A program made the position numbers and the translations under genes. From Escherichia phage PhaxI, in sequence record JN673056: 64,000 nt of DNA; one strand, given 5' to 3'. Positions 1,491-58,424 of the stretch are shown piece by piece (the first letter of the stretch is position 1; each line of letters starts with the position of its first letter). The notes beneath the pieces were generated by a model that had not been told where the DNA came from, ran no database searches, and worked only from the letters and a program-made list of their open reading frames with translations.

Positions 1491-2553
1491 TATCGAGGCG
1501 CTCCAGCATATCTGCAGGCATAACCGAACTCTGAGAGATACCGAACATGTTGTTCACATCGTCAACAAAGTCTGGGTTTTCCAGCAGCGGATACCAGAAG
1601 TCATCCCCCAGCTCTGCCTTACGATATTTCTTTTCTTTTTCTGGATCAAACCCGCCTTTGGCAGTGCGTTGATACCAAGAACCACTCACCAAATCCACAT
1701 ACCCCAGCATGCGCGCAATTTCTAACATACCGGACCAACGGTCAATACCGCCTTCATACAACACAGTGACAGGGAACTTGGCTTTTTCACGGACAAAGCG
1801 GCCTTTCATAATGTTGACTGTAAACTGCCATCCCAAAAGGTCTTTGTCTTCTTTAACTTGAGAACGCGTGATGAACCACAATTGGTTAGAAGACAGGAAC
1901 CCCTGTTTACCGCCTTTGATGTTCGGCTCGGCGTATTGGTTCCCGATTTCATCATAGTACGAGTTGATCCATACCAAAACGAATTTCTTTTCAGTGACCA
2001 ACGGGGTGATAACACGCCAAAAACTATTGAGAGCGCGAGCGCGGGTCATATCTTGCGTGTCTTTGCCCGCGATGGCATCATCAACTTCTTTGGTAGACGG
2101 CAACTGGCTGATTGAGTCAATGAATACGATGATCTTGTCACCTTTCTGTGCATCGTTCAGAAGCTGTGTCAGCTTGATCTTCGTCTTTTCAACGTTTTCA
2201 ATCGGCAGATACAAGACACGGTCCATGTCAATACCCATAGATGTCCAGTAGTTTTCATTCGCACCGCCTTCTGAATCCGCGAAGATACAAATTGCATCAG
2301 GAAACTTATCCATGTAAGCCTTAACATCCACCAGCCCAAACATGGTTTTGAATGTACGAGAATCCCCCACCAACTGTTTGATGCCTGATATCAGACCACC
2401 ATCAATACGACCGGACCAGGCCAAATTCAGAATAGGAATACCCGTACTGCAAATAATGTCAGGCTTCAGCGCATCGGTCTTTGACAGCACTTCGGCATTC
2501 GGGTCCAGTTTCTTTGCTGTCTTGAGCATGCGAGCCATCAATGAATCGGCCAT
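1468..2553 (-). CDS. uvsX: UvsX RecA-like recombinase
   Basis: 361 aa; RecA-fold core with P-loop-like VGDSRTFKT and C-terminal RecA-like region; synteny with 41. Confidence 0.85.
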   Translation of the reverse strand: MADSLMARMLKTAKKLDPNAEVLSKTDALKPDIICSTGIPILNLAWSGRIDGGLISGIKQLVGDSRTFKTMFGLVDVKAYMDKFPDAICIFADSEGGANENYWTSMGIDMDRVLYLPIENVEKTKIKLTQLLNDAQKGDKIIVFIDSISQLPSTKEVDDAIAGKDTQDMTRARALNSFWRVITPLVTEKKFVLVWINSYYDEIGNQYAEPNIKGGKQGFLSSNQLWFITRSQVKEDKDLLGWQFTVNIMKGRFVREKAKFPVTVLYEGGIDRWSGMLEIARMLGYVDLVSGSWYQRTAKGGFDPEKEKKYRKAELGDDFWYPLLENPDFVDDVNNMFGISQSSVMPADMLERLDNVIKTTE

Positions 2554-3068
2554 TTCGTTTCCTCTTGCTTGTTGATCGTAATTAATAAATCGGTGCCCAA
2601 GACTTTCTTGGACAATATATTGATTGCTTCATGAATCGCCATTATTGACGGGAGTTTTTCATCGTTAATTTCGGAACCCCCGCGTTCTGTTAAATACATA
2701 TTACGCAGACGATTGTGCTGTGCCCTGTTGACACAAGAAACATTCAATGCGATATTCAGGATATACATCATTTGTTCAGTTGTAACATCCTTTGGAATAG
2801 CATGAACATAATATATCGCATCTTCAAAATAGATATGCTGTAATGACTCTGGAATTTCTTCCCCGCCAAAAGCAAAATCTTCAATGCGTTTAAAAAGTGT
2901 TTCCGGCTCTGGTGTTGTAATATGTTGCGTTACAGTAGCCGCACCATCTGGTTCTTTGTTGAATTTGGTCGCGATAACGACATGTCTGCCAGGTTTAATA
3001 AACTCAGCAAAGTTCTGTGCCATTTGCGGGGCGTGTTCCGCGTAATATGATACGACGACTGTAAACAT
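2538..3068 (-). CDS. Hypothetical protein
   Basis: 176-aa ORF tightly packed between uvsX and the pyrophosphatase gene; no motif recognised. Confidence 0.45.
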   Translation of the reverse strand: MFTVVVSYYAEHAPQMAQNFAEFIKPGRHVVIATKFNKEPDGAATVTQHITTPEPETLFKRIEDFAFGGEEIPESLQHIYFEDAIYYVHAIPKDVTTEQMMYILNIALNVSCVNRAQHNRLRNMYLTERGGSEINDEKLPSIMAIHEAINILSKKVLGTDLLITINKQEETKWPIH

Positions 3069-3613
3069 TAGAACTCCAGAGTCAAAGGGGTTTCCGCGGA
3101 CTTATCATAGTTCGCACCGCCAGCAGCACGTAGACGATTGCGATCGTTCTTGCGCTTGTGGGCCAGCATGTAGGTCTCAGCATCCAGCCCCAAATATCCG
3201 CAAGCCGCTGCCAAGAAGGTAGCCAAAACATTCCGAAGAGGGTGTGACATGAAATACGTGAACAGTTCAGTCACTTTCCTGAGGTCGTGAGGGGTTTGAA
3301 TTGGCTGCGCCTGAACGAATCTCACCATTTCGGGAATATCGTGTGGTTTGTCTTCCTCCTGCAGGACAGCACAGAGCATGAAGTGAACAACGTCCACCAA
3401 CTCGTATATGGCATCCACTTGTCGCCAATGCTTACCACCCCCATAGATCTTCCAGTCTATGGTTGTTTCGTCTAGAAACTCTGCCCACTCACGATAGATG
3501 GAGTTTGCTATCGCCACTTCGGTCCAGCGCTTCTTCCACTCTTCCCCAAAATAGGCCACGTTGGTGGCCTTTTGAAGTTCGAGCAGACTTTTAATATGCT
3601 CTGCTGTGATCAT
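3068..3613 (-). CDS. All-alpha NTP pyrophosphatase (dimeric dUTPase/dCTPase-like; possible T4 gp56 analogue)
   Basis: 181 aa; LLELQKATN...EEW...REWAEFLDE...VDVVHFML pattern typical of dimeric dUTPase/dCTPase/MazG-like enzymes; abuts the dNMP kinase gene. Confidence 0.5.
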   Translation of the reverse strand: MITAEHIKSLLELQKATNVAYFGEEWKKRWTEVAIANSIYREWAEFLDETTIDWKIYGGGKHWRQVDAIYELVDVVHFMLCAVLQEEDKPHDIPEMVRFVQAQPIQTPHDLRKVTELFTYFMSHPLRNVLATFLAAACGYLGLDAETYMLAHKRKNDRNRLRAAGGANYDKSAETPLTLEF

Positions 3614-4194
3614 TTCCGATCCCTATAAAATTTGACGAACGGTTGCCAACCTTCAAACGGATTGACAAATTCATAATCAACTTCCATCTTATCAATGAAA
3701 GCCTCAATGTCATCCTCTATGATACCACCGCGATCCGCCTTTGAAATGCGGGTGATGGGACATTTAGTGCTCAGCGCCCATTCATATTCCTGAGGGGTGC
3801 GCAAATCACTCACGATATAATGAACGTGTGGGTTCTGTTCCACCAAAGGAAGTTGATATCGTTTAAAGAATGACAGAAACAGGTCTGGTTGTACGTAACG
3901 CAAGCCCGTATCGCTGCCGAGATGAAGCCAGATCTGCCTTGGGGTTAATCCCTTGGGGTTATCTGGGTGAACATATGGCAAGTCCTTGATGTCGTCCTCC
4001 ACCTCCGCTGGTAGCCATGGGTAGATGAAATTGGCGACACGTCGCAGTTCATCTGAGAAAGACAGACGACGAATATCCTTATCACCCTGAATATGATGAA
4101 ACCTGATCAGGGACTCCAAACAGAAGTCCTTGCCGGAGCGCTTGCGCCCCGTGAAGAATTCAAGGTTCTGGTACATCATTCGCCATACCCCCAC
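3610..4194 (-). CDS. Deoxynucleoside monophosphate kinase (T4 gp1-like)
   Basis: P-loop TGRKRSGKDF near the N-terminus, as in T4 dNMP kinase (VKRSGKD); 194 aa. Confidence 0.6.
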   Translation of the reverse strand: MGVWRMMYQNLEFFTGRKRSGKDFCLESLIRFHHIQGDKDIRRLSFSDELRRVANFIYPWLPAEVEDDIKDLPYVHPDNPKGLTPRQIWLHLGSDTGLRYVQPDLFLSFFKRYQLPLVEQNPHVHYIVSDLRTPQEYEWALSTKCPITRISKADRGGIIEDDIEAFIDKMEVDYEFVNPFEGWQPFVKFYRDRK

Positions 4195-5219
4195 ATAAAT
4201 TTCTGATCAACAGGGGAATGTAGTAATGCAGTACGAAGACCGTCATCAGCGATACGGCGTTTGTCAATTTTGGTATCATTGAGTCGACACCACAGGCAAT
4301 ATGACATATCCATCATCAATCCCGTGTCTGCTTGATATCCTTTCAGATGTTCTCTGATTTTACCAAAATCACTGCCGATGTCACAGTGATGTAACACGCC
4401 GAGGAATAGATTACAAATATCTTTTTGGGACTTCACTTTTTCTGAAGAGAATTCCAGCAAAGAATTATACATCCCAGAAGAAGTTTTGGTCTTCTTAGTG
4501 ATACCCCCGAGTTGTTTCCGACTAACTTCATTGTTGTAATAATGAAGATTGTTAGAAAACAGTTTGTAATACCCAACTTCGACATTCAGCACTTTCGCCA
4601 GAACTTCTTGCAGGATAGAGAATTCAATGAAATTGATTGAACTCATGCCCCACAAGACATCTTGGCTGCGGTTAATGACAGTGATATTCAATCGCCCTTC
4701 TGTTATACTGAACAATAGAGCAAGATTACAGATCATGTCCTTGGTCTTGGCTTCTCCAGTTTCACTATGGGTGGCCAAACCTTCATCTGAGTCCAGCGCC
4801 GGATCATAGATGGTGAGATACGCCTGACGGGTGTTGGGATTATTACGCAGACGGCTGATGACACTATCCAACTGGCCATTATTGTACAGACGTGGGCCAT
4901 ACGCGCCTCGCCAGGTTACACCGTCATCAGAGAAGTTGGCGGCGCGGGGTAAGACTTTCGAAAGGAAACGGATATCATTACGTCCGGACAACACCCAGAA
5001 TGTCTCACCGATGGCAGCAATTGCCGACGAGTTGCGGCCTTCAACGGAAAGCCAACGGTCACGTGGATCTGATACTGTAATTGTTACACCATCAATGAAA
5101 CGAGTGCCGTCAGTGTTAATCTCTGCGTTGCCAGGATCTGACTCAATGCCGTGTTCACGGATGGCCAACACAGCCTTCTTCAGCATATCATTATTGTTTA
5201 AAGCAAAAATTTCCATCAA
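4176..5219 (-). CDS. Thymidylate synthase-family enzyme (deoxypyrimidylate hydroxymethylase/methylase-like) with a C-terminal extension
   Basis: 347 aa; TS-like blocks ETFWVLSGRND, TRQAYLTIYDP, candidate nucleophile Cys in DMICNLALLF followed by RSQDV...SSINF (aligns by eye with TS PPCH...RSCDV...PFN); about 100 extra C-terminal residues. Confidence 0.6.
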   Translation of the reverse strand: MMEIFALNNNDMLKKAVLAIREHGIESDPGNAEINTDGTRFIDGVTITVSDPRDRWLSVEGRNSSAIAAIGETFWVLSGRNDIRFLSKVLPRAANFSDDGVTWRGAYGPRLYNNGQLDSVISRLRNNPNTRQAYLTIYDPALDSDEGLATHSETGEAKTKDMICNLALLFSITEGRLNITVINRSQDVLWGMSSINFIEFSILQEVLAKVLNVEVGYYKLFSNNLHYYNNEVSRKQLGGITKKTKTSSGMYNSLLEFSSEKVKSQKDICNLFLGVLHHCDIGSDFGKIREHLKGYQADTGLMMDMSYCLWCRLNDTKIDKRRIADDGLRTALLHSPVDQKFMWGYGE

Positions 5220-5890
5220 TCAATACTCCCAAAATCACGATTGAGAAACGCAAAAACAGCCTGCTCTATAGTCAGGCCATTGGACTTCATCATACCTGCG
5301 GGAACGGTAGGGAACAAGCCTTTATGCCGTTGGCGGTGGTCATGAACTCTCTCCCACTTCTCGACCACCAGGCTTTCATTGAAGTCTGCGCCGCCGTTGC
5401 GTGATTTCACACGGGAAACACAGGTTTCAAGCGGGGTGTCCATGAAGAGCACGACTAATTCGCGCGGTGGGCGCGTCAGGCGGGGAATCCATGAGCTGAG
5501 CAAAGTTGAAGGGATGATTCCTTCAAACAACACGTCATATTTCAGATATTCCGGCTGATCAGCAATGGACAAGGCGAACAACATCTGCTCGGTATCTTTC
5601 AGGGAATCAACACCTTTAGACTTAGACTTGTCATATTTACCAATACAGATAATGTTATAGGAAGGGCAAACTGTGAGCATGATCTTGCCATTGTAGGTCA
5701 CGACATACGCCTGAGGATCATTCTCCGCCAGATAGGAAGGGACAGTGGACTTGCCGCTACCGTTGGAGCCTTTAACGTAATACAACTCTCCTCGTGCCGG
5801 ATATTCCCCTTCGACAGCAGGTGGTTTTACAAACAGATGTACGGGGCGCTTCAACAACCCTTTGAGCGAATACGACATGGTGTGCTCCAA
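5216..5890 (-). CDS. P-loop kinase (nucleotide or polynucleotide kinase-like)
   Basis: Walker A GSNGSGKST at residues ~42-50; 224 aa; ATGA-type overlap with the TS-family gene. Confidence 0.5.
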   Translation of the reverse strand: MEHTMSYSLKGLLKRPVHLFVKPPAVEGEYPARGELYYVKGSNGSGKSTVPSYLAENDPQAYVVTYNGKIMLTVCPSYNIICIGKYDKSKSKGVDSLKDTEQMLFALSIADQPEYLKYDVLFEGIIPSTLLSSWIPRLTRPPRELVVLFMDTPLETCVSRVKSRNGGADFNESLVVEKWERVHDHRQRHKGLFPTVPAGMMKSNGLTIEQAVFAFLNRDFGSID

Positions 5891-8955: not shown

Positions 8956-9900
8956 GTGGAAGACTATCGCAATTTTCTAACGCAACTGCTTCAACGGGGT
9001 ATTTCCCGCAAGAACAGATTTCGTGTTACAATTCCGTTGCCGCCTGGGATATTTGATTCCAATGCAACACTAGCAAATGATGGGAACGCGTATCCTTCAT
9101 CTTCATCATTTGGGGATCTGTTCAAACAAAGCGCCCGTATTGTAAACGCATTCTTTGGAGGGACAAACCAAACATCTCGTTCCCTGCAAATGATGTGTAT
9201 GGTCGCATCTTTACCTGGTACAGGGATTGACACTACTCCCATGACCAACAACGGCAACCACATTAAAATGCCGAACAACAAGACGAACATTGATCTGGAG
9301 TTGTCGTTCCTCCTCGCCAACGATTATTATGAAAAGTCGGTCATGGACAAATGGAAGAATCTGATATTCGACCCATACACAACCAAGATGGGTTATTATG
9401 AAGATTTCGTGACCGATATTTGTATAGAACAAATGGATACAGAAGATCAGGTTGTTCATCGCGTTTATGTGACTGAGGCTCACCCCATCAACTTCAGTTC
9501 TATAGACCTGGATAAAAGCGCCGCCGATCAATTTAATCAGTACAACATTTCCTTTTCTTATAACAAAGTATTATCGGAGACTGAATATGAAACGCGCAGC
9601 CTCGCCAGCGATTTTCTTCCTTTGGGTATTACTGATGCTCTTGCTTCCGGAGACTGGGAAACCGCTGCGTCAAAAGCCGGACAGCTGTATAAAAAGATCA
9701 AAGAAGGAAACTTCACAGGTGAAGCCCTGCTGGCTTATAAGCAACTCGATCAGCTTGTAAACAATCTGGCTGGTATCAGCTTGGCTGATTTCGAAAGGAT
9801 CTCTATCGGCATCCAGAGGGATATATTAGGCAATGATAACCTGACGGCGTCTGAGAAGAGTAGTCTGTTGGGATTGTTACAGGATGTTGTCAAAAACTAA
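8956..9900 (+). CDS. Putative virion structural protein (late gene; baseplate/tail-associated?)
   Basis: ORF is open from 8761, but GTG at 8956 is preceded by GGAG (8944-8947) and the late promoter; 314 aa from the GTG; followed by a terminator hairpin. Confidence 0.5.
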   Translation: MEDYRNFLTQLLQRGISRKNRFRVTIPLPPGIFDSNATLANDGNAYPSSSSFGDLFKQSARIVNAFFGGTNQTSRSLQMMCMVASLPGTGIDTTPMTNNGNHIKMPNNKTNIDLELSFLLANDYYEKSVMDKWKNLIFDPYTTKMGYYEDFVTDICIEQMDTEDQVVHRVYVTEAHPINFSSIDLDKSAADQFNQYNISFSYNKVLSETEYETRSLASDFLPLGITDALASGDWETAASKAGQLYKKIKEGNFTGEALLAYKQLDQLVNNLAGISLADFERISIGIQRDILGNDNLTASEKSSLLGLLQDVVKN

Positions 9901-9920
9901 AAAGCCCCCGAAGGGGCTTT
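9901..9920. terminator. Bidirectional rho-independent terminator hairpin
   Basis: aaaGCCCCcgaaGGGGCttt between convergent genes (8956..9900 plus, gp32 minus); T-run on the minus strand. Confidence 0.6.
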
Positions 9921-9927
9921 AGTGAAA

Positions 9928-51086: not shown

Positions 51087-53105
51087 TTAGAAAATGACTT
51101 TTACAGTACGGTTAAACGCGCCGGACACTTTGACGAACACGTGGTTGCGTTGCGTCGTCGAGAATCCCAGACCGGACAGTTGGTTTTCATTCGGCTGGAC
51201 TTTCATTTTACTACCCAACATTTCAAAAACCTTACGATGTTTATCCAGTTCCGGCTTCAGATATTCGTTGTAGAAACCACGAGTACCTTCAGGATTAGCA
51301 CAGCCTTCCAGGATGAAGAACACGTGCTTGTTGCCTGTCTGCTCGCCATCCCAATGGTTTGGTGAGTTCAGGACCAGCTGTACTTTCTGGAAGGTCGCAG
51401 TCTTGATACCCCAAACTTCTTTAGACTTATCAACATTAGCCAGTTCGGACTTAATGCCAACAACTTGTTTGTCTTTAACAGTCAAGATGACTGCGGTGAT
51501 ACGTCCCTGATCTTTCAGGCCAGGATGGCTGAAACGATGCGTTGCGCCTTTGTATTCTACTTCGACTTCAAACCCTTCGTCGATTTTTTCACGTTGATTG
51601 TAGTTGTGGATTTCGAAACGGTATTCACCATCGCGCAGCTTGCTTTCATCTGTAAAGATGATATTTTCCACCGGAGCGCGGTTTGGATCAATACCATCCA
51701 TACCGTTCATATCGATATCCAGATGGGCACCTGTCATAGAGCGGCGATCGCGGAAGTAAACGTGCTCCATGTTGTTGAACATATGCAGATCGAGGTCGTC
51801 GTTATTGTGCCACGCCAAGGAAACGCGCAGATACCCGTCAACTTTACCGCCAGCAGCCTTTACACGTTCTTTAATGGAATCGGTCACTTCACCGTTGTAA
51901 GACCAGGAGAACCCGTTGTTCCACTTGAACAGGTTAGGCGCATCTGGGTTCGCCGGAGCAACCAGGGACATCAGGTTGCTAGTATGAGAATTCTCTACAA
52001 GCACTTCCATTGAATGCGCTTTTGGCAGAACATTGCTCAGGAAATCATCAACGCTGATCTCTTCAACTTTTTCCAGGGACTTGGTCGGAGTTTTCACTTC
52101 GGCGGCCAGCTGTGCAAACGGATCCATCGCTTTCTGAGCAGCCAGATCTGCGAACAGAACGTTGTTGATTGTCAGATCATCGTAAACCGCATAACGACGC
52201 GCCAGTGAGTCTTCCAAACCCAGAGCAATAACTTCTTTCTGAGCGTTTTCGATCATGGATTTTGAAACCAGCGCTGTCGGACGTTTGTAGTTCGCCGGAG
52301 CAACTTTGGATTCAAACGATTTAACAGCCTTTTCCAGTTCCACGCCTTCACTGATATCTGTCAGCAGAGTGCCGATAACTGTGTTGCGGATGCCGTGTGG
52401 AACATGATTGTTTGAACGGTATCCAGTATGCCATGCCCAAAGAGAACGGGCTGATTCGGGGACTTGTTCATATGCCTTTTTGGTTTCAACAAATCCCTTC
52501 ACTGCTGCTTTGTGTTCTGCGCCGCGATACAGAGAATTCTGGTCAATCAGTTCCAGAACGATTTCAGCTGATTCCAGAGTAATTTCACGCAGACCGCGTT
52601 CAAACAATTCAATAGCCTGGCGGATTTCACCTTTTTTCGAAGCGATTGCGTCCGGACGCAGAACATAGCTACCAAGTAATTGGGTATGGAAATGATTGTA
52701 AGTACGGATTTTGCCATCTTCACCAGATTCGTGATTGTGAGACAGGCCGACTTTGGCAGAATCGTTAAAATAAACATCGACGATTGCGTGTTGTTTGACA
52801 TACGCGGAAAGAGCCGCAGCCACCACGTCATATTCATTACCCAGATCAATGTTGTCCCAGATAGAAATTACGTTCAGTTCTGAATCGATGGTGACAACAC
52901 CGCCGATGTTACGGATGAATTGTTTACAGCAGGTGCAATCGTGTTCAGTACGTTCGCGGTACAGCGGGTTAGTACCAGCAGGGAAAGATGCCAGATACAG
53001 ATCCCAAAGAGCATCTTTATCGATATTGGTCATGAACAGACCAGTTGCGGACATCGCCAGCACGTTGTTATTAACTGCCGTTGCGAAGGGTTTGAATTCT
53101 GCCAT
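51087..53105 (-). CDS. Large hypothetical protein (672 aa)
   Basis: Long ORF; N-terminal HDCTCC; a KVDGYLR tract noted but not assignable to a family. Confidence 0.55.
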   Translation of the reverse strand: MAEFKPFATAVNNNVLAMSATGLFMTNIDKDALWDLYLASFPAGTNPLYRERTEHDCTCCKQFIRNIGGVVTIDSELNVISIWDNIDLGNEYDVVAAALSAYVKQHAIVDVYFNDSAKVGLSHNHESGEDGKIRTYNHFHTQLLGSYVLRPDAIASKKGEIRQAIELFERGLREITLESAEIVLELIDQNSLYRGAEHKAAVKGFVETKKAYEQVPESARSLWAWHTGYRSNNHVPHGIRNTVIGTLLTDISEGVELEKAVKSFESKVAPANYKRPTALVSKSMIENAQKEVIALGLEDSLARRYAVYDDLTINNVLFADLAAQKAMDPFAQLAAEVKTPTKSLEKVEEISVDDFLSNVLPKAHSMEVLVENSHTSNLMSLVAPANPDAPNLFKWNNGFSWSYNGEVTDSIKERVKAAGGKVDGYLRVSLAWHNNDDLDLHMFNNMEHVYFRDRRSMTGAHLDIDMNGMDGIDPNRAPVENIIFTDESKLRDGEYRFEIHNYNQREKIDEGFEVEVEYKGATHRFSHPGLKDQGRITAVILTVKDKQVVGIKSELANVDKSKEVWGIKTATFQKVQLVLNSPNHWDGEQTGNKHVFFILEGCANPEGTRGFYNEYLKPELDKHRKVFEMLGSKMKVQPNENQLSGLGFSTTQRNHVFVKVSGAFNRTVKVIF

Positions 53106-53201: not shown

Positions 53202-53609
53202 TTAAACGGGAATCATGTTTACTCGAATACTTCTGAACTGTTTCCCGTCATAACTGGTGTAACCAACAACCGTAACTGATCTTGTTCCCTTTGGATAACC
53301 CTTTGGAGTACTCACAACGCGCACAGGGCGCTTGCTTTCTTTATCGTATTTCGAAATCAATTTCAAAAGATGTTTATCGATCTGGCTTAAACTATCACCA
53401 TACACGGTATATTGATATTGCTCGCAATTACCCAACAAAATGATAAATTTATAAATTTTGTCGACCAAAGATCGACATTTTGGATCATCATAATGATGCC
53501 GACAGACTTGACATTCATATTTCCCAGTATTCATGTTGAACAATTTTGTCGCCCGACTTGAACACGCTGGGCATACTTTCCATGAACGATGATGTTTTAC
53601 GGGTTTCAT
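53202..53609 (-). CDS. Zinc-ribbon protein
   Basis: CPACSS...CQVCRH (two CxxC pairs); 135 aa. Confidence 0.45.
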   Translation of the reverse strand: MKPVKHHRSWKVCPACSSRATKLFNMNTGKYECQVCRHHYDDPKCRSLVDKIYKFIILLGNCEQYQYTVYGDSLSQIDKHLLKLISKYDKESKRPVRVVSTPKGYPKGTRSVTVVGYTSYDGKQFRSIRVNMIPV

Positions 53610-54832
53610 TTTTTCATCTTCTCTAACAGATTAATAGAACGAACGGGAGTCTTCTGTAATGGCTGATTAACTTCACCACCATTATACCCCACCTTTCCTC
53701 GAGGTTTCTCCCCGCGCATCACCGCCTCAACGCAGCGGGTATATTTCTGAAGTTCACAGAACATGTTCTCCAACTGCATAACATTCATGCAACGGTCTTC
53801 CGGTTCTTCTGCCGACCAAAATTCATTACGTTTATACCCGTACTGAGCGAACAATTGATCTTGATGATCACGAACCCAGAATATGCATTCTTCATGCGTC
53901 ATGCCGTCCTTGTCCAAAAATAACAGATCGATACCAGCACGGCAACCTGGACCAGCGATAGTGAAGTGGTTTTCACTGAATGGATATTCATCGATGTATG
54001 TAAAATCAACCCAAATCTGGTATGCCAAGAATGGTCCAAGCCCCTCAATGTCGTCATACATCGCCTGGTAAACAGAGTCGGGACGGCTAAATTCCCTGAG
54101 GCGATCAAAGTAATGAGGGTGTTTGTTGACGAATGCCTTCAAAGAGCGGATGACTCGCATCGGCATGTATGGTTCCCAGCCTTCTATTTTGTATTCACCA
54201 GGATTATCTTCGGCCAGCTTCTTGGCAACCTTGTAATCCATTTCATCTATAACACCGCCAACCCGATGGACTTTTACCTTCATGCCGCCAAAGCGTTGCT
54301 CCTTGTGGTTGACAACTAGTTCAGGGAAAGCCAGGCATTGTTTCAGACCGCCTGTATTAAACGCATTGGTGAAAACTTTGCCACCTTTAGATTCGAATTC
54401 CTGAAGAACATCTCGACACCATTCAAGATTTATGTTTCCGAATTCTTCGATCGTCCATGGACCACCCAAAGCCTGTATAGGTTCCCACATGTTGTACATG
54501 CGGAACAATACACAGTTGAACATTTTGTCAGATAGCGTGAGATCCTGATCGAGGATGATATTATTGATCAAATTTCGAGACTGCCTATCGTGCTCTCTCC
54601 GGACGTTACAGAACTTGACCTGCCGTAGTATGGGATTATCCGTCCAAGGAGCAGGAAGACGCTGGACGTCCTTTCTCACGTGGATCTTATAACGCTCGCT
54701 CATCCATTCGTATGCGAGTTGTTTATGGAATGGGCTTAACATGGGATGTGCAGATTTAATTTTAACTTCCCGAACACCGCAATAAGGAATGTCACACGGT
54801 TTATCTTTCATGGTATCCTCTCTAGAATACAA
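53606..54832 (-). CDS. Hypothetical protein (408 aa)
   Basis: Long ORF with no recognised motif. Confidence 0.5.
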   Translation of the reverse strand: MYSREDTMKDKPCDIPYCGVREVKIKSAHPMLSPFHKQLAYEWMSERYKIHVRKDVQRLPAPWTDNPILRQVKFCNVRREHDRQSRNLINNIILDQDLTLSDKMFNCVLFRMYNMWEPIQALGGPWTIEEFGNINLEWCRDVLQEFESKGGKVFTNAFNTGGLKQCLAFPELVVNHKEQRFGGMKVKVHRVGGVIDEMDYKVAKKLAEDNPGEYKIEGWEPYMPMRVIRSLKAFVNKHPHYFDRLREFSRPDSVYQAMYDDIEGLGPFLAYQIWVDFTYIDEYPFSENHFTIAGPGCRAGIDLLFLDKDGMTHEECIFWVRDHQDQLFAQYGYKRNEFWSAEEPEDRCMNVMQLENMFCELQKYTRCVEAVMRGEKPRGKVGYNGGEVNQPLQKTPVRSINLLEKMKK

Positions 54833-54881
54833 AAAACAGAGGCCATTATAGCCTCTGTTGTTTAGTGAATAACGGATTATA

Positions 54882-55754
54882 TTAATCGAAGCGAGAGAGG
54901 TGTGTCACAGTGTTTTGAACAGGTGCGCACGCGTATACACGAACATTAGCACCCCACACCCCACACAGCTTAGGCATATTGGTATCGTTAATGATATACG
55001 CTGGCACATAACTTTCAATTTGGCCGTTAACATCTACGGGTCGAGAAGATTTTTCAACTGCCATAGAAAGAATTATTTCCAACGTTTTTGGAGATACCAA
55101 ACGCCACGCCGTCAAATCATCAACAAATACCTGACCTTCTTCAATTGCCATGCTGGCAACGATGTCATTGATCTGACGGGAAGGGGTATTCGTCAGCATA
55201 TCAGAGAAATCAGGCTCTTTGAACACAGCCATGTTTTTCAGGAATTTTCCTTTCGGATATTCTTTGCCATTCCACATCACAGTCTCATTCACTTTGATGC
55301 ATGCCTGAGGGAATTCACCTTCAACGCGTAACTGGCCAACTGGGAAACCGCGTGAATAATAATATTCCAGTGCCGGACCGACTTCATCTTCTGAGCGAAT
55401 AAATTTGCTCATGTTGGAGGCATAAACACGCTGCAAGCACTCATCGCCGTTGAAACCAGCAATGTGTGCCACGCCGTCATTGACTGTTGTGATGTCGCCC
55501 TGAGCGTCCAAAATCTGGCGCATAATGTCTTTGATGTCGACAACAGCAGGTTCTTTCAGGACTCGCGGAGATGCAGTGAACTCAATTTTCACCTCGTGGT
55601 CGAAATAAGCCGCTTCCAGTAATTCGCGGGTCTCTTCCAGAACCAGTTTGGCCTGATTGCGAATTTTACCGAAGTCAGGGGCTGTAATATCTCCAGCCGC
55701 ATTACCAAAAGCCAAATTCAGTCTCACGTTTTTATTAAATGTAGTTGTCATAAT
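54882..55754 (-). CDS. Hypothetical protein (N-terminal MazG-like helical motif; weak)
   Basis: Start set at MTTTFNK; KLVLEETRELLEAAYF; the track ORF extends to 55838, overlapping regA. Confidence 0.45.
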   Translation of the reverse strand: MMTTTFNKNVRLNLAFGNAAGDITAPDFGKIRNQAKLVLEETRELLEAAYFDHEVKIEFTASPRVLKEPAVVDIKDIMRQILDAQGDITTVNDGVAHIAGFNGDECLQRVYASNMSKFIRSEDEVGPALEYYYSRGFPVGQLRVEGEFPQACIKVNETVMWNGKEYPKGKFLKNMAVFKEPDFSDMLTNTPSRQINDIVASMAIEEGQVFVDDLTAWRLVSPKTLEIILSMAVEKSSRPVDVNGQIESYVPAYIINDTNMPKLCGVWGANVRVYACAPVQNTVTHLSRFD

Positions 55755-55767
55755 ATAGCGACTCCAG

Positions 55768-56163
55768 TTATTCAATTTTTGCCCGACTTGGGCGAATGGT
55801 GTATTTTGGAACCAGTTTCCACTCTGAAACTTGGTCATGTTTTACAACTTTGATCCGAGACATGTCAGCCACTTCGGTTATTTGTTCCGGATGCAAGATC
55901 TTAACCATATTCCATTGCTCCAGAAGCCGTATAATCCGATTCATACGCAGGACATCTTCACGCGTAAAGCCGTTATAGTGCCCATCTAGCATGAACAAAT
56001 GCTTGAAATGCACGATGTGATATCTGCCAAATTTATGCAGGATATGGCACGTTTGATACAAGGTGTTAGGCTCTTGACGAGTGTTAACCCCTATCCGACT
56101 CAGCGTTTCCTTGATACCCAGGAAAATCCCTGGTTTGTCTTGGTTCAATTGAACTTCAACCAT
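55768..56163 (-). CDS. regA: Translational repressor RegA
   Basis: IKETLSRIGVN...LYQTCHILHKFGRYHIVHFKHLFMLDG...EWKLVPKYTI resembles T4 RegA; start set at MVEVQLNQ (the track ORF extends to 56232). Confidence 0.85.
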   Translation of the reverse strand: MVEVQLNQDKPGIFLGIKETLSRIGVNTRQEPNTLYQTCHILHKFGRYHIVHFKHLFMLDGHYNGFTREDVLRMNRIIRLLEQWNMVKILHPEQITEVADMSRIKVVKHDQVSEWKLVPKYTIRPSRAKIE

Positions 56164-56261
56164 ACAGTCAACAATGCTGGCCTCATCGTTGACAGCTGAA
56201 AGTTTTAAGATGTCCAGCGTATTACGCGCCATGACTCATACCCCTTTAACAATTATTTGAA

Positions 56262-56684
56262 TTACTTAGCCTTGCGCGGTTTGGCTTTTTCGTTGCTGTT
56301 GGAACGTTCGACCTTCGCCTTGATTTCAGCCAGGACTTCTTTCGGCAGGAATCGAACATATTCTGAAGCCTTTTCAGGACTGATGTAATAATACTCAGAA
56401 ATCAATTTCACATCAGGATCCATAGCTCCCTTCTTAGACCACTTGCCATAGCGACGTTTTGCCGGAATGCTATGAAACGCCAGGTTCCATTGCATCCAAG
56501 GAGTAATGGCATGAAAGCGGTTCATTTGTTCAGCAACCACAAGCGTGTCTTTACTCTGGGCAAGGCCGCGCCGAGTCATGAAAGGATCAAAAGCCTTTCT
56601 GATTTCGGGGTCTTCGGTCATCAACAGATTCTCTTTGGTGCTATTCAACGCACCGAGGTAATCGAACAGTGACGGAGCGGCCAT
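56262..56684 (-). CDS. 62: Clamp-loader small subunit gp62
   Basis: PAKRRYGKWSKK resembles T4 gp62 PRGKRYGKWAK; sits between gp44 and regA. Confidence 0.65.
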   Translation of the reverse strand: MAAPSLFDYLGALNSTKENLLMTEDPEIRKAFDPFMTRRGLAQSKDTLVVAEQMNRFHAITPWMQWNLAFHSIPAKRRYGKWSKKGAMDPDVKLISEYYYISPEKASEYVRFLPKEVLAEIKAKVERSNSNEKAKPRKAK

Positions 56685-56688
56685 AATA

Positions 56689-57678
56689 TTACTTCCATTT
56701 GATGTTGAGCATGACGTTAGTCAAGAAGTAAACGCCGTGTAACCAGACGTCGCCGACGGAACGATGTTCAATCTGAGACTGACCACAGACGCATACCAGA
56801 TCAGGGATTGACTCGTTTTGAATCAAAGGAGTCTTTTCCTTGTTCTGGGGAACGCAGAAATGGAAGAAACGGGAATAAAAATCTTCAGTGATGTAGTTTT
56901 GGTTGTCGGTCACCCACTGCTTCATCCCAGCCCAATCATTGGTTTTTAGGAAATCCACCAACGCTTGGAATTCCCCTGCTTTAACCTGTGCCAGAGCGCG
57001 TTCATCGATTTTACCAAACGTGGTGGCATTATCCTGAAGAGTTCCCATAATTTTGCGATTATCTGGGAAATATGATTTCACAATGGAAGCAATTACACCA
57101 GCTTCATACGGAATGCCTTCCTCTGTCAGGATAGTTGCGCAACGACGCATGAATTGAAGTTTAACTTCATCTGCTTCCTTTTCAGACCAGATAAAATCAA
57201 TTTCACGACAGCGGGAACGCAGAGGTTCGTTAACGCGCTGTTTCGCATTAGTCGTCAGGATGAAGGAGCAGTTTTTGGAGACTTTCTCTACGATGCCTTT
57301 CAGGGATTCCTGCGCCGCCATGGAAAGTCGCTCAACTTCATCGAGGATAACGACTTTGCGGCCACCGAAAACACTGACGCCAGTTGCGTATTGAATAACA
57401 CGGTCACGGATGACATCAATGCTGTTATCCAGTGACGCATTGATCATCAACGGTTTGATACAACCGATTTCGTTGCAAACAGCCAGAGCAGAAGTAGTCT
57501 TGCCCGTACCAGGCTGAGGGGAATAGAACAGCATTGAGGGGATGTTTCCATTGCCTGATGTAACATAGCCATGGATTTTTGCACGGACGTCTGAAGGGAG
57601 GACGATCTCATCCAGATTGTCAGGGCGATATTTGTTTTCCCACGCGTATTGATCTGTGACGATAGTGATGTTAGACAT
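56689..57678 (-). CDS. 44: Clamp-loader large subunit gp44 (RFC-like AAA+ ATPase)
   Basis: Walker A PQPGTGKTT, Walker B ILDEVE, sensor SRC; 329 aa. Confidence 0.9.
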   Translation of the reverse strand: MSNITIVTDQYAWENKYRPDNLDEIVLPSDVRAKIHGYVTSGNGNIPSMLFYSPQPGTGKTTSALAVCNEIGCIKPLMINASLDNSIDVIRDRVIQYATGVSVFGGRKVVILDEVERLSMAAQESLKGIVEKVSKNCSFILTTNAKQRVNEPLRSRCREIDFIWSEKEADEVKLQFMRRCATILTEEGIPYEAGVIASIVKSYFPDNRKIMGTLQDNATTFGKIDERALAQVKAGEFQALVDFLKTNDWAGMKQWVTDNQNYITEDFYSRFFHFCVPQNKEKTPLIQNESIPDLVCVCGQSQIEHRSVGDVWLHGVYFLTNVMLNIKWK

Positions 57679-57755: not shown

Positions 57756-58424
57756 TTAATCCAGCTGCATGCCGACGTAATAGTTGATGGTGCCGTCTGC
57801 GGATTGGAAGTTAACCAGTTGCATTTCGGCACAGGCGCGGATCACGTAGTTTCCTTCGATCATTTTCAGGTTGACCACATCAACAGGCATAGCAAAATCG
57901 CCCAGAGTTGTTTCGCCCAATTCAACAGTGTAATCGTTGGAATTATCGATAGTAGTGGTCGTGCCTACCAGACGAGTTTTACCGCCGCTGGCAACCAGAC
58001 GTACAGTTTTGTGGCCCAGAGTAGAACAGGCGCGGGTCAGCTCTTTCATTTTTTCAGGAGTGACCGTTGCTTCGAATTCTACAGACGGGAGATCGATGCT
58101 GTCTGCTGGAACGACCGTCAATTCTTTAGCGGAACGCCAGAATTGCAGTTGGGAGTTTTCACCTTTCAGCAAAATGTGGTCTTCTGACATTTCAATTTTA
58201 CCGCCTTTGAAACTCGGAAGACGCTGGATTGCCAGCAGTTTGGTGAGATCTAGAATCGGGAATTCGAACGGGAAGTCTTCGTCGATATCAGCGATAGCGA
58301 TAACTGTACTGGAATCGTTAACGGTGCGCAGCTTTTTACCAGGTGCCAGAACGATAGAGGGGCAGATGGTTTCAAAGTTAGCCAGCAGTTGTAAAGTGCG
58401 TTCGGAGAGAGTGATCTCTTGCAT
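57756..58424 (-). CDS. 45: Sliding clamp gp45
   Basis: 222 aa directly upstream of 44/62/regA (T4 synteny); size and composition fit gp45. Confidence 0.75.
   Translation of the reverse strand: MQEITLSERTLQLLANFETICPSIVLAPGKKLRTVNDSSTVIAIADIDEDFPFEFPILDLTKLLAIQRLPSFKGGKIEMSEDHILLKGENSQLQFWRSAKELTVVPADSIDLPSVEFEATVTPEKMKELTRACSTLGHKTVRLVASGGKTRLVGTTTTIDNSNDYTVELGETTLGDFAMPVDVVNLKMIEGNYVIRACAEMQLVNFQSADGTINYYVGMQLD

What the first reader, a model, noticed from the sequence alone, without database searches (positions are those of the whole stretch)
53606..55754. Two unknown proteins (408 aa and ~290 aa) directly downstream of regA
They occupy the position T4 gives to DNA polymerase 43, yet show no polymerase motifs. 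The 290-aa protein has an N-terminal MazG-like helical tract (LVLEETRELLEAAYF), which might indicate another nucleotide pyrophosphohydrolase and tie it to the nucleotide module at 2538-5890.
Basis: inference. Interest (0 to 1): 0.45.

Follow-up and report, generated by a model that had tools for sequence, protein, structure and literature searches.

The report
Thymine-hypermodification enzyme plus MazG-like pyrophosphatase
The two genes after regA are real but not unknown: one is the ViI gp160-type DNA-base-modifying enzyme of the phage's thymine-hypermodification system, whose exact reaction nobody has assigned, and the other is a MazG-like nucleotide pyrophosphatase with an extra orphan domain.

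Summary
The window is a Kuttervirus (CBA120/ViI/PhaxI-like Ackermannviridae) genome segment. Both ORFs are real and sit directly after regA on the minus strand. Their true starts are ATG 54811 (401 aa, not 408) and ATG 55751 (289 aa). dN/dS against ViI is about 0.11 for both.

The 401-aa protein is the ortholog of ViI gp160. It belongs to Pfam PF18723, formerly "aGPT-Pplase clade 1" (E=6e-85). It has a helix-hairpin-helix glycosylase-like fold and keeps an E-N-x-x-C-E motif that matches the metal-ligand and Cys-nucleophile motif of the characterised clade-2 amino-acid:DNA transferases. gp160 is not part of the published purified-enzyme route to 5-NeOmdU, and its reaction is unassigned. Clade-1 genes occur in every thymidine-hypermodifying phage examined, and sit beside or fused to a P-loop kinase in four phage groups.

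The 289-aa protein has an intact DR2231/PRA-PH/MazG-type catalytic core (residues 1-187) and a C-terminal domain restricted to part of the Ackermannviridae. The counterpart of the experimentally characterised dTTPase/dUTPase is a different window gene (3068-3613).

Overall this is already known, with one real open question: the reaction catalysed by clade 1.

The parts
55768..56232 (-). regA translational repressor, the upstream neighbour and last gene of the 45-44-62-regA block
   Evidence: Pfam PF01818 E=4e-35 and PHROG 242. Same position as ViI orf00162.
54882..55751 (-). MazG-like (DR2231/PRA-PH-type) NTP pyrophosphohydrolase, 289 aa; ortholog of ViI orf00161 and CBA120 orf157
   Evidence: 82% identical to ViI Vi01_131c. 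PHROG 2144 E=5e-133. 100% identical to the Escherichia phage PhaxI protein. dN/dS 0.107.
55191..55751 (-). Catalytic N-terminal domain (residues 1-187): helical bundle plus a small beta region. Metal-ligand motifs are E39-E40-x-x-E43 (55614-55646 region) and D82-x-x-x-D86 (55494-55508).
   Evidence: 232 cluster representatives match at E<=1e-3, nearly all over residues 1-187 only. E40, E43, D82 and G93 are invariant; D86, H96, K169 and K172 are conserved in at least 90%. The profile hits DR2231 at E=2.5e-8. AF2 pLDDT exceeds 90 over most of this domain (two 10-residue blocks at 75 and 87).
54885..55190 (-). Orphan C-terminal domain (residues 188-289) with conserved ESYxP...WGxW.ANVR.Y...LTRxD
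   Evidence: It is absent in phiMAM1, Bue1, Vibrio phage YC and N4-like podophages. There are no Pfam or PDB matches. The AF2 model is low-confidence here.
54835..54859 (-). Intrinsic-terminator-like hairpin (11-bp stem, T-run) between the two genes
   Evidence: sequence. The artefactual TTG start of the 408-aa ORF lies in its T-tract.
53606..54811 (-). aGPT-Pplase clade 1 / Pfam HMUDK_hel protein, 401 aa; ortholog of ViI gp160 (orf00160, Vi01_130c)
54002..54082 (-). Helix-hairpin-helix element (residues 244-270, ...IEGLGPFLAYQIWVDF), followed by the invariant G287-P288-G289 loop
   Evidence: Model helices 244-254 and 260-270. F261, D269 and GPG are invariant across distant clade-1 proteins. 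Translation checked.
53741..53770 (-). Predicted active-site motif E348-N349-M-F-C352-E353-L-Q-K356-Y357
   Evidence: C352, E353, K356 and Y357 are invariant from Ackermannviridae to PaMx11-like, M6-like, PhiW-14 and Brevibacterium phages. hhalign pairs the motif with ViI gp247 E282-T283..C287..K291. The spacing equals PUGT Glu243-Thr244-x-x-Cys247 (PMC11472151). Translation checked.
53202..53609 (-). 135-aa zinc-ribbon ORF whose ATG overlaps the stop of the 401-aa gene (ATGA); function unknown; probably co-transcribed
   Evidence: PHROG 16119. Only sub-threshold Zn-ribbon hits. Present in CBA120 (orf154) but absent at this position in ViI.
5216..5890 (-). [quoted passage not shown]
   Evidence: Pfam PF18748 HMUDK_HMUD1 E=1.7e-116. 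Matches PHROG 800 positions 2-220.
4176..5219 (-). Thymidylate-synthase-like protein (dUMP hydroxymethylase candidate)
   Evidence: Pfam PF00303 E=1.3e-14. Same position as the annotated dUMP hydroxymethylases of ZC01 and SH-Ab 15599.
3068..4194 (-). dNMP kinase (3610-4194) and dimeric-type dUTPase_2 (3068-3613). Together they correspond to the fused, experimentally characterised dTTPase/dUTPase gp18 of phage SH-Ab 15599.
   Evidence: gp18 carries both domains. BLASTP of gp18 against window 3068-3613 gives E=1e-6. Activity data in PMC13458397.

Best explanation
The locus belongs to the phage's system for making DNA in which about 40% of thymines are 5-(2-aminoethoxy)methyl-dU. The figure comes from ViI and CBA120 and is taken from the literature.

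Gene 1 (53606-54811, 401 aa) is the ortholog of ViI gp160, a clade-1 'aGPT-Pplase' (Pfam PF18723).
- Shown here: family membership, the HhH glycosylase-like fold, and a universally conserved Cys352-Glu353 with an E348-N349 pair four residues upstream.
- Inferred: like the characterised clade-2 transferases, it flips a 5-phosphomethyl-dU (made by the 5-hmdU DNA kinase at 5216-5890) out of newly replicated phage DNA. It holds O4 through a metal bound by E348/N349. Cys352 attacks C6, phosphate is expelled, and an exocyclic C5-methylene intermediate forms. I put this covalent-catalysis step on 5-PmdU DNA at about 0.55.
- Fate of the intermediate: the published purified-enzyme route to 5-NeOmdU uses kinase, gp247 and gp226 and does not include gp160. 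My preferred guess (about 0.3) is that clade-1 enzymes resolve the intermediate by reduction to thymine. That reaction is common to all these phages and is still unassigned.

Gene 2 (54882-55751, 289 aa) follows regA closely, with no terminator-like hairpin found between them, so it probably belongs to the clamp/clamp-loader/regA transcription unit (inferred). Its N-terminal 187 residues form a metal-dependent (d)NTP alpha-beta pyrophosphohydrolase of the DR2231/PRA-PH/MazG type with all acidic ligands present. The fold and motifs are shown; activity is inferred. The substrate is unknown. dUTP and/or dTTP clearance to favour 5-hmdUTP incorporation is the leading candidate (about 0.35). The C-terminal 100 residues are an orphan domain restricted to part of the Ackermannviridae.
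For: Identity and family:
- Pfam PF18723 E=6e-85.
- 80% and 82% identity and conserved gene order with ViI orf00160 and orf00161.
- gp160 is one of the five ViI gene products sufficient for 5-NeOmdU formation in lysates (PMC5889632).

Active site:
- C352, E353, K356 and Y357 are invariant in eight clade-1 proteins down to 21% identity.
- hhalign aligns the motif with the E-T..C..K motif of ViI gp247.
- PUGT uses Glu243/Thr244 for the metal and Cys247 as nucleophile.
- The Cys and Glu are essential in M6 gp51 and ViI gp247.

Context:
- A clade-1 gene lies directly after a P-loop kinase in ZC01, LKO4 and Microbacterium phage Golden.
- PHROG 800 indicates a kinase-clade-1 fusion, as tabulated for SP10 gp186 in PMC5889632 Table 3.
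- Clade 1 is clustered with kinase-2, ADDT and the hydroxymethylase in Vibrio phage D533.
- It is also present in PhiW-14 and SH-Ab 15599.

gp160 outside the published pathway: gp247 is necessary, and purified gp247 then gp226 convert kinase-treated 5-hmdU DNA to 5-NeOmdU; gp160 is absent from the paper's table of proteins (PMC8989533).

Open reaction: 'How 5-hmdU is converted to thymidine ... is still unknown' (PMC5889632). NaBH4 turns the clade-2 intermediate into thymidine.

MazG-like protein. DR2231 is reported as exclusively a dUTPase (title cited in PMC7575645).
Against: - No activity has been shown for gp160 or any clade-1 protein.
- Profile-profile similarity to clade 2 is statistically weak (E=0.09-0.18). 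It rests on one motif plus the fold.
- E348 is not universal: it is S in PhiW-14 and Q in LuckyBarnes.
- No reductant-binding motif was found.
- None of the passages of the two reconstitution papers I read mentions thymidine formation in lysates that contained gp160.
- SP10 has only the fused clade-1 domain in the published table yet makes glutamyl-thymine, so clade 1 may itself be a group transferase.
- For the MazG-like protein, the Pfam MazG, PRA-PH and dUTPase_2 models do not hit this sequence directly.
- Homologues of its N-domain occur in N4-like podophages with no 5-hmdU gene nearby.
- A dUTPase_2 enzyme homologous to a proven dTTPase/dUTPase already exists at 3068-3613.
Confidence: 0.55

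Rival explanations
1. The 401-aa protein is a second group transferase, like clade 2. It would add serine or another small nucleophile to 5-PmdU in sequence contexts or at times that gp247 does not cover, rather than making thymine.
For: It shares the fold and Cys motif with the amino-acid:DNA transferases. In the published gene table SP10 has only a clade-1 domain, fused to its kinase, yet makes glutamyl-thymine (PMC5889632 Table 3). In the lysate drop-out reactions gp247 was necessary even though gp160 was among the five lysates used.
Against: gp247 is necessary in those lysate reactions, so gp160 does not replace it. I read of only one hypermodified base in ViI DNA. Clade 1 is conserved across phages whose adducts differ and are set by clade 2. 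That pattern suggests a shared function rather than an adduct-specific one.
Confidence: 0.2
2. The 401-aa protein is not a chemical catalyst. It would be a DNA-binding, base-flipping accessory of the 5-hmdU DNA kinase, presenting 5-hmdU to the kinase or setting which sites are phosphorylated. The current Pfam name ('5-hmdU DNA kinase, helical domain') could be read this way.
For: Kinase and clade-1 genes are adjacent in four phage groups and fused in PHROG 800 / SP10 gp186. Hypermodification is described as sequence-specific.
Against: Kinases alone, including the SP10 kinase domain without its C-terminal part, phosphorylate 5-hmdU DNA in vitro (PMC8989533). An invariant Cys-Glu pair at the position of the clade-2 nucleophile is hard to explain for a purely structural role.
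Confidence: 0.15
3. The 289-aa MazG-like protein is unrelated to thymine replacement. It would be a general phage NTP pyrophosphatase that cleans non-canonical or host-made toxic or signalling nucleotides, or reshapes dNTP pools. Its variable C-terminal domain would then be an adaptor for regulation or targeting.
For: N-domain homologues occur in N4-like podophages, Pakpunavirus-size Pseudomonas phages and a Xanthomonas jumbo phage. Across Ackermannviridae the gene stays with regA rather than with the clade-1 gene. The dTTPase/dUTPase role has another candidate at 3068-3613. The C-domain diverges by genus while the N-domain stays highly conserved.
Against: The closest solved relative is a strict dUTPase. 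The gene is adjacent to the clade-1 gene in Kuttervirus and Miltonvirus. PADLOC gives no hits, and no data point to an immune-related substrate.
Confidence: 0.4
4. The 401-aa protein is a conventional HhH DNA glycosylase that excises a base, for example uracil or 5-hmU.
Against: There is no Pfam HhH-GPD hit. The Asp after the Gly/Pro loop (D295) is replaced by A, N or E in other clade-1 proteins. Excising 5-hmU from the phage's own fully substituted nascent DNA would be self-destructive (inference).
Confidence: 0.05

Closest known systems
Salmonella phage ViI gp160 (orf00160, Vi01_130c); Pfam PF18723 HMUDK_hel, formerly aGPT-Pplase clade 1
   Same: 80% identity, the same neighbours (regA, then MazG-like, then gp160), and the same Pfam family far above threshold. 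gp160 is one of the five ViI proteins used in the 2018 lysate reconstitution.
   Different: Nothing material. In this window the gene is followed by an overlapping 135-aa zinc-ribbon ORF that ViI lacks at this position. The biochemical function of gp160 itself is unassigned.
Clade-2 aGPT-Pplases / amino-acid:DNA transferases (Pfam PF18724 ADDT): ViI gp247, M6 gp51, PaMx11 gp46 (PUGT, PDB 8Z2M), SH-Ab 15599 DADT
   Different: No PF18724 hit, and pairwise similarity is at noise level. There is an insertion of roughly 95 residues (about 150-245) relative to the short clade-1 core. It does not replace gp247 in lysate reactions, and it is absent from the published pathway.
HhH-GPD DNA glycosylases (EndoIII/NTHL1, Ogg, AlkA) and queuosine-salvage hydrolase QNG1 (DUF2419)
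   Same: Overall helical two-lobe fold with an HhH element and a Gly/Pro-rich loop.
   Different: The catalytic Asp is not conserved in the family. No Pfam match. A conserved Cys-Glu is present instead.
DR2231 of Deinococcus radiodurans (MazG-like dUTPase) and the Pfam PRA-PH / MazG / MazG-like families
   Same: The family profile of the N-domain hits DR2231 at E=2.5e-8. 26, 13 and 13 of 60 homologues hit PRA-PH, MazG and MazG-like respectively. The acidic ligands of the EExxE and second motifs are conserved.
   Different: This sequence itself is below the Pfam thresholds. The second motif is D-x-x-x-D rather than E-x-x-D. There is an insertion at residues 49-72 and an added 100-residue C-terminal domain with no known relative.
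SH-Ab 15599 gp18, the characterised bifunctional dTTPase/dUTPase (dNMP-kinase + dUTPase_2 fusion)
   Same: It is an all-alpha NTP pyrophosphatase serving a 5-hmdU pathway in a phage classified in Ackermannviridae.
   Different: It is homologous to the window's other genes (3068-3613 and 3610-4194), not to the 289-aa protein. BLASTP gives E=1e-6 against the former and no significant match to the latter.
T4 gene 43 DNA polymerase (the gene that follows regA in T4)
   Same: Only the map position after 45-44-62-regA. The T4 gene order is from my own knowledge.
   Different: No polymerase domain is present. In ViI the polymerase lies at 145-148 kb, next to kinase-2 and gp247.

Membership tests
aGPT-Pplase clade 1 / Pfam PF18723 (HMUDK_hel) | Match to the family HMM above the curated threshold over most of the model | tested here: met
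   285.4 bits against a cutoff of 25; model positions 5-278 of 281. All 120 listed homologues carry PF18723.
aGPT-Pplase clade 1 / Pfam PF18723 (HMUDK_hel) | HhH DNA-glycosylase-like fold | tested here: met
aGPT-Pplase clade 1 / Pfam PF18723 (HMUDK_hel) | Genomic co-occurrence with 5-hmdU DNA kinase and dUMP hydroxymethylase | tested here: met
   The window has HMUDK_HMUD1 at 5216-5890 and a TS-like gene at 4176-5219. The same association is seen in D533, ZC01, LKO4 and SH-Ab 15599.
aGPT-Pplase clade 1 / Pfam PF18723 (HMUDK_hel) | Orthology to the literature member ViI gp160 | tested here: met
   80% identity over the full length, with the same flanking genes.
aGPT-Pplase clade 1 / Pfam PF18723 (HMUDK_hel) | Enzymatic activity on 5-PmdU or 5-PPmdU in DNA | not testable with these tools
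   The papers I read report no activity for any clade-1 protein.
Amino-acid:DNA transferase (clade 2, Pfam PF18724 ADDT) | Match to the ADDT HMM | tested here: not met
   Only PF18723 is reported for the 401-aa protein, whereas ViI gp247 hits ADDT at E=3e-58.
Amino-acid:DNA transferase (clade 2, Pfam PF18724 ADDT) | Metal-ligand Glu/Thr pair and catalytic Cys (PUGT Glu243-Thr244-x-x-Cys247) | tested here: inconclusive
   E348-N349-x-x-C352 has the same spacing and is paired with the gp247 motif by hhalign, but only at E=0.09-0.18. Cys is invariant in clade 1, while Glu348 varies in 2 of 8 sequences.
HhH-GPD DNA glycosylases | Conserved catalytic Asp following the HhH and Gly/Pro loop; Pfam HhH-GPD match | tested here: not met
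   D295 is replaced by A, N, N and E in ZC01, LKO4, PhiW-14 and LuckyBarnes. No HhH-GPD hit.
MazG / all-alpha NTP pyrophosphohydrolase superfamily (PRA-PH, MazG, MazG-like, DR2231) | Sequence-profile relationship to family members | tested here: met
   There is no direct Pfam hit for this sequence. However, 26, 13 and 13 of 60 homologues hit PRA-PH, MazG and MazG-like. The family profile hits DR2231 at E=2.5e-8. PHROG 2144 and PHROG 671 match.
MazG / all-alpha NTP pyrophosphohydrolase superfamily (PRA-PH, MazG, MazG-like, DR2231) | Acidic metal-binding motifs on the helical bundle (EExxE ... ExxD) | tested here: met
   E39-E40-x-x-E43, with E40 and E43 invariant. In D82-x-x-x-D86, D82 is invariant and D86 is at least 90% conserved. 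The spacing of the second motif differs by one residue from the classical form. Helices are modelled at pLDDT above 90.
MazG / all-alpha NTP pyrophosphohydrolase superfamily (PRA-PH, MazG, MazG-like, DR2231) | Hydrolysis of (d)NTP to (d)NMP + PPi, and substrate specificity | not testable with these tools
   I found no assay data for this protein or its orthologs in the papers searched.
Dimeric dUTPase (Pfam dUTPase_2), the type of the characterised phage dTTPase/dUTPase | HMM match or homology to SH-Ab 15599 gp18 | tested here: not met
   No dUTPase_2 hit. hhalign against window 3068-3613 gives E=0.33. BLASTP against gp18 is not significant.
Family-B DNA polymerase (T4 gp43) | Polymerase or exonuclease domains | tested here: not met
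   Neither protein gives a polymerase Pfam, NCBIfam or PHROG hit.

The most novel reading that the evidence does not exclude
Clade-1 aGPT-Pplases (this protein, ViI gp160, M6 gp55, PhiW-14 gp72, the C-terminal half of SP10 gp186, and SH-Ab 15599 AXF41385) may be the missing post-replicative 'thymine-forming' enzyme. Under this reading they work directly downstream of the 5-hmdU DNA kinase and use the invariant Cys-Glu pair to convert 5-phosphomethyl-dU in DNA to an exocyclic methylene. They would then reduce it to thymine at all sites not captured by the clade-2 transferase. That would explain why virion DNA contains no 5-hmdU, and why a kinase-plus-clade-1 pair is the recurrent (sometimes fused) core of these systems.
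Probability: 0.25. Interest if true: 0.75.

Novelty: already known. Interest (0 to 1): 0.35.

Why it matters
As found, the locus is ordinary for a Kuttervirus. Both genes are conserved and annotated in hundreds of sequenced phages, and one is named in the primary literature on thymidine hypermodification.

The part that matters is the residue of ignorance. The clade-1 enzyme is present in every hypermodifying phage examined here, carries what looks like an intact covalent-catalysis motif, and still has no assigned reaction. The authors of the pathway papers state that the conversion of 5-hmdU to thymine in DNA is unexplained. Testing this one protein could close the pathway. It could also yield a new DNA-level C5 chemistry useful for enzymatic DNA labelling.

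The MazG-like protein matters less. Its substrate would show whether these phages use two separate pyrophosphatases to condition the pyrimidine pool.

Tried and rejected
- Single-sequence and profile HMMER searches of PDB sequences with the 401-aa protein found nothing. The single-sequence search with the 289-aa protein found nothing either.
- NCBIfam and PADLOC gave no hits for either protein.
- BLASTP and profile-versus-sequence hhalign of the 401-aa protein against ViI gp247 were at noise level. I had to build a gp247 family profile.
- A relationship between the MazG-like protein and the window's dUTPase_2 was tested and not found. Homology to the characterised dTTPase/dUTPase gp18 was also tested and rejected.
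- The C-terminal domain had no PDB profile hit. Its only Pfam result was one sub-threshold VanA_C hit in one of three subtypes. The UniRef label 'PAS domain' was not reproduced.
- No promoter could be placed in the 24 nt between the terminator and the ATG of the 401-aa gene, and sigma-70-like matches were at background frequency. Terminator read-through therefore remains an assumption.
- Iyer et al. 2013, Hutinet et al. 2021 and Goncalves et al. 2011 are not in the held library.
- The 408-aa TTG start and the 318-aa ATG start were both considered and rejected on the grounds given in the observation check.


Full report
**What the window is.** A 3.3-kb stretch around the finding is 99.4% identical to Salmonella phage BRM 13313 and 98.1% identical to Escherichia phage CBA120, with 275 matching phage records, nearly all Ackermannviridae. 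The 289-aa protein is 100% identical to that of Escherichia phage PhaxI. The window is therefore a Kuttervirus genome segment. This group's DNA carries 5-(2-aminoethoxy)methyl-dU (5-NeOmdU) in place of about 40% of thymidines (PMC5889632; PMC11721090).

**Checking the observation.**
- On the minus strand the gene order is gp45 (57756-58424), gp44 (56689-57678), gp62 (56262-56684), regA (55768-56232; Pfam Translat_reg E=4e-35), and then the two ORFs of the finding.
- The 408-aa ORF begins at a TTG inside the T-run of an intrinsic-terminator-like hairpin (54859-54835). The ATG at 54811, preceded by GAGAGGA, gives a 401-aa protein starting MKDKPCD. This is the start annotated in ViI and CBA120, and the one shared by all homologues.
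- Both are under purifying selection against ViI: dN/dS is 0.115 and 0.107, compared with 0.015 for regA.
- Neither protein has a polymerase domain.
- In ViI the DNA polymerase is at 145-148 kb, next to two other hypermodification genes.

**The 401-aa protein: identity.**
- It matches Pfam PF18723 at E=6e-85, 285 bits against a cutoff of 25. The family is now called 'HMUDK_hel, 5-hmdU DNA kinase helical domain'.
- One phage record still annotates its homologue as 'alpha-glutamyl/putrescinyl thymine pyrophosphorylase clade 1', and an Ackermannviridae genome paper uses the older Pfam name for this gene (PMC10458263).
- It is 80% identical to ViI Vi01_130c, noted as orf00160. The 'gp' numbers of Lee et al. 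equal these orf numbers, because the published accessions of gp226, gp243 and gp247 map to orf00226, orf00243 and orf00247.
- It is therefore the ortholog of ViI gp160. gp160 is one of five gene products whose mixed lysates converted 5-hmdU DNA to 5-NeOmdU (PMC5889632).

**The 401-aa protein: fold and active site.**
- An AlphaFold2 model from 47 homologues has mean pLDDT 89.5.
- Foldseek was uninformative.
- An alignment of eight clade-1 proteins was built from Kuttervirus, Miltonvirus, a Vibrio phage, PaMx11-like ZC01, M6-like LKO4, PhiW-14 gp72 and Brevibacterium phage LuckyBarnes, reaching down to 21% identity. It leaves few invariant residues. Among them are F261 and D269 in the HhH element, G287-P288-G289, and C352-E353-x-x-K356-Y357.
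- Profile-profile comparison with a ViI gp247 family alignment is weak overall (E=0.09-0.18). It does place E348-N349..C352..K356 on gp247 E282-T283..C287..K291, and it is collinear through the HhH region.
- In the PUGT crystal structure, Glu243 and Thr244 bind the metal that contacts thymine O4, and Cys247 is the proposed C6 nucleophile (PMC11472151). The spacing E-x-x-x-C is identical in the window protein.
- The Cys and a nearby Glu are essential in M6 gp51 and ViI gp247 (PMC8989533).
- The Asp expected of a true HhH-GPD glycosylase (D295) is not conserved.
- I conclude that the protein is probably an active enzyme using clade-2-like covalent catalysis. It is not a glycosylase, and it is probably not merely a structural module.

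**The 401-aa protein: what is and is not known about function.**
- With purified proteins, 5-hmdU DNA treated with the kinase is converted by gp247 plus serine to O-seryl-thymidine, and gp226 decarboxylates that to 5-NeOmdU.
- gp247 is necessary in lysates. gp160 is absent from the paper's table of proteins and receives no function (PMC8989533).
- No paper I could search assigns a reaction to any clade-1 protein. The 2026 study of phage SH-Ab 15599 does not mention its clade-1 gene, although the genome has one (AXF41385.1, PF18723 E=6e-40) just upstream of the dUMP hydroxymethylase.

**The 401-aa protein: comparative context.**
- In ZC01 (PaMx11-like) the cluster is ADDT, FAD oxidoreductase, acetyltransferase, P-loop kinase, clade 1, dUMP hydroxymethylase, HD nucleotidase.
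- In LKO4 (M6-like) clade 1 again directly follows the gene in the kinase position. That gene was not scanned here; RefSeq mislabels it 'terminase small subunit'.
- In Microbacterium phage Golden a P-loop nucleotide kinase and clade 1 form an adjacent pair, with no ADDT nearby.
- The PHROG 800 profile joins a kinase half, matched by window 5216-5890 at positions 2-220, to a clade-1 half, matched by the 401-aa protein at positions 376-472. This is expected if the family contains fusions like SP10 gp186 (PMC5889632 Table 3).
- In Vibrio phage D533 the clade-1 gene sits in one block with the polymerase, kinase-2, the probable ADDT gene (assigned from the Vibrio phage D528 homologue, P0412), the hydroxymethylase, the dNMP kinase and the dUTPase.
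- Clade 1 thus accompanies systems that make five or more different adducts, with the adduct set by clade 2. That pattern suggests a function shared by all these systems.
[quoted passage not shown] They also showed that borohydride reduces the clade-2 methylene intermediate to thymidine.
- Pairing the one unassigned conserved enzyme with the one unassigned common reaction is my preferred hypothesis, at about 0.25-0.3. I found no reductant-binding motif, and none of the passages I read reports thymidine formation in gp160-containing lysates.

**The 289-aa protein: evidence.**
- No Pfam, NCBIfam or PDB sequence hit is obtained for the sequence itself. PHROG 2144 'MazG-like pyrophosphatase' and PHROG 671 do match.
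- An exhaustive search of 1.8 billion cluster representatives found 232 relatives. Almost all cover only residues 1-187, and many are 150-250 aa long.
- In a 60-sequence alignment E40, E43, D82 and G93 are invariant. N12, N17, G20, Q33, D86, H96, G99, K169, L171, K172 and P180 are at least 90% conserved.
- Of these homologues, 26 hit Pfam PRA-PH, 13 hit MazG and 13 hit MazG-like.
- The family profile hits the solved MazG-like protein DR2231 at E=2.5e-8. A 2016 FEBS Journal title describes DR2231 as having 'exclusive activity on dUTP' (cited in PMC7575645).
The second acidic motif is D82-A-Q-G-D86.
- The N-domain is modelled mostly at pLDDT above 90, and the C-terminal 100 residues below 60.
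- The protein is about 175-190 aa, without that domain, in Serratia phage phiMAM1, Erwinia phage Bue1, Vibrio phage YC and N4-like podophages.
- The C-terminal domain diverges by genus while the N-domain stays highly conserved. It has no detectable relative.

**The 289-aa protein: likely role.**
- The gene starts 16 nt after the regA stop and is followed by the terminator-like hairpin. It therefore looks like the last gene of the clamp/clamp-loader/regA unit; this is an inference.
- A 5-hmdU phage needs dUTP turned into dUMP and dTTP removed.
- That activity has been demonstrated for SH-Ab 15599 gp18 (PMC13458397). gp18 is a fusion of a dNMP kinase and a dUTPase_2 domain.
- Its counterparts in this window are the adjacent genes 3610-4194 and 3068-3613, not the MazG-like protein.
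- The MazG-like enzyme is therefore either a second, perhaps dUTP- or dTTP-selective, pool conditioner or a general house-cleaning or counter-defence pyrophosphatase. I rate these at about 0.35 and 0.4 and cannot separate them computationally.

**The link to 2538-5890.** That module consists of:
- an ACT-like protein (2538-3068);
- dUTPase_2 (3068-3613);
- a dNMP kinase (3610-4194);
- a thymidylate-synthase-like hydroxymethylase candidate (4176-5219);
- the 5-hmdU DNA kinase of the ViI gp67 type (5216-5890; PF18748 E=1.7e-116).

The stronger connection runs through the 401-aa protein, whose presumed substrate is the product of the kinase at 5216-5890.

**Gene order.** T4 places gene 43 after regA (my own knowledge). 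In Kuttervirus and Miltonvirus that position holds the MazG-like gene and then clade 1. In SH-Ab 15599 it holds the clade-2 transferase itself. In ViI the polymerase sits next to kinase-2 and gp247. Hypermodification genes are thus repeatedly placed next to replisome genes, which fits their action on nascent DNA.

**Verdict.** The MazG reading is right, and 'unknown proteins' is wrong. Both genes are already known, and the larger one is already named in the literature. The residual interest is the unassigned reaction of the conserved clade-1 enzyme, which is directly testable.

Noticed in passing
window 5216-5890 (-); also L011 4408-4971 and L014 1353-1958: The 5-hmdU DNA kinase gene (Pfam PF18748, E=1.7e-116) is labelled 'terminase small subunit' in the RefSeq records of CBA120, LKO4 and Golden. 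The label comes from PHROG 800, whose 511-position profile is really a kinase + clade-1 aGPT-Pplase fusion family. This mis-annotation appears to propagate.
   Followed up: partly
window 53202-53609 (-): A 135-aa zinc-ribbon ORF whose ATG overlaps the stop codon of the clade-1 gene (ATGA). It is present in CBA120 (orf154) but absent at this position in ViI. Some phage records call it 'DNA-directed RNA polymerase'. Only sub-threshold Zn-ribbon / TFS-like hits were found.
   Followed up: partly
window 51087-53105 (-): A 672-aa conserved protein of unknown function (PHROG 1735), with no Pfam, NCBIfam or PADLOC hit. It is intact here, in CBA120 and in phiMAM1, but is annotated as two ORFs in ViI (Vi01_128c and Vi01_129c).
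   Followed up: no
window 54835-54859 (-): The terminator-like hairpin between the two genes has TATAAT as its loop. Only about 24 nt lie between it and the next start codon, so the clade-1 gene probably depends on read-through or on a promoter overlapping the terminator.
   Followed up: partly
L013 (Acinetobacter phage SH-Ab 15599) 3922-5251 and 8961-9926: In this phage, classified in Ackermannviridae, regA is followed directly by the characterised diamine:DNA transferase (clade 2). The phage also carries a clade-1 gene (AXF41385.1, PF18723 E=6e-40) next to the dUMP hydroxymethylase, which the 2026 pathway paper does not mention.
   Followed up: partly
L012 (Brevibacterium phage LuckyBarnes) 822-4837: A clade-1 gene lies next to two TET-associated glycosyltransferases and a 517-aa thymidylate-synthase-like protein with a long C-terminal extension. 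No ADDT or recognisable kinase is nearby. This may be a different 5-hmdU-derived (glycosylated) modification system.
   Followed up: no
L014 (Microbacterium phage Golden) 1353-2823: A minimal pair of a P-loop nucleotide kinase (PF18751) and a clade-1 protein, in a 40-kb siphophage that encodes ThyX rather than a ThyA-like hydroxymethylase. The substrate of this pair is unclear.
   Followed up: no
window 2538-3068 (-): A 176-aa 'phage ACT-like domain' protein (PF24021, E=2.5e-86) sits between UvsX and the dUTPase_2 gene inside the nucleotide module. It may be a small-molecule-sensing regulator of that module.
   Followed up: no
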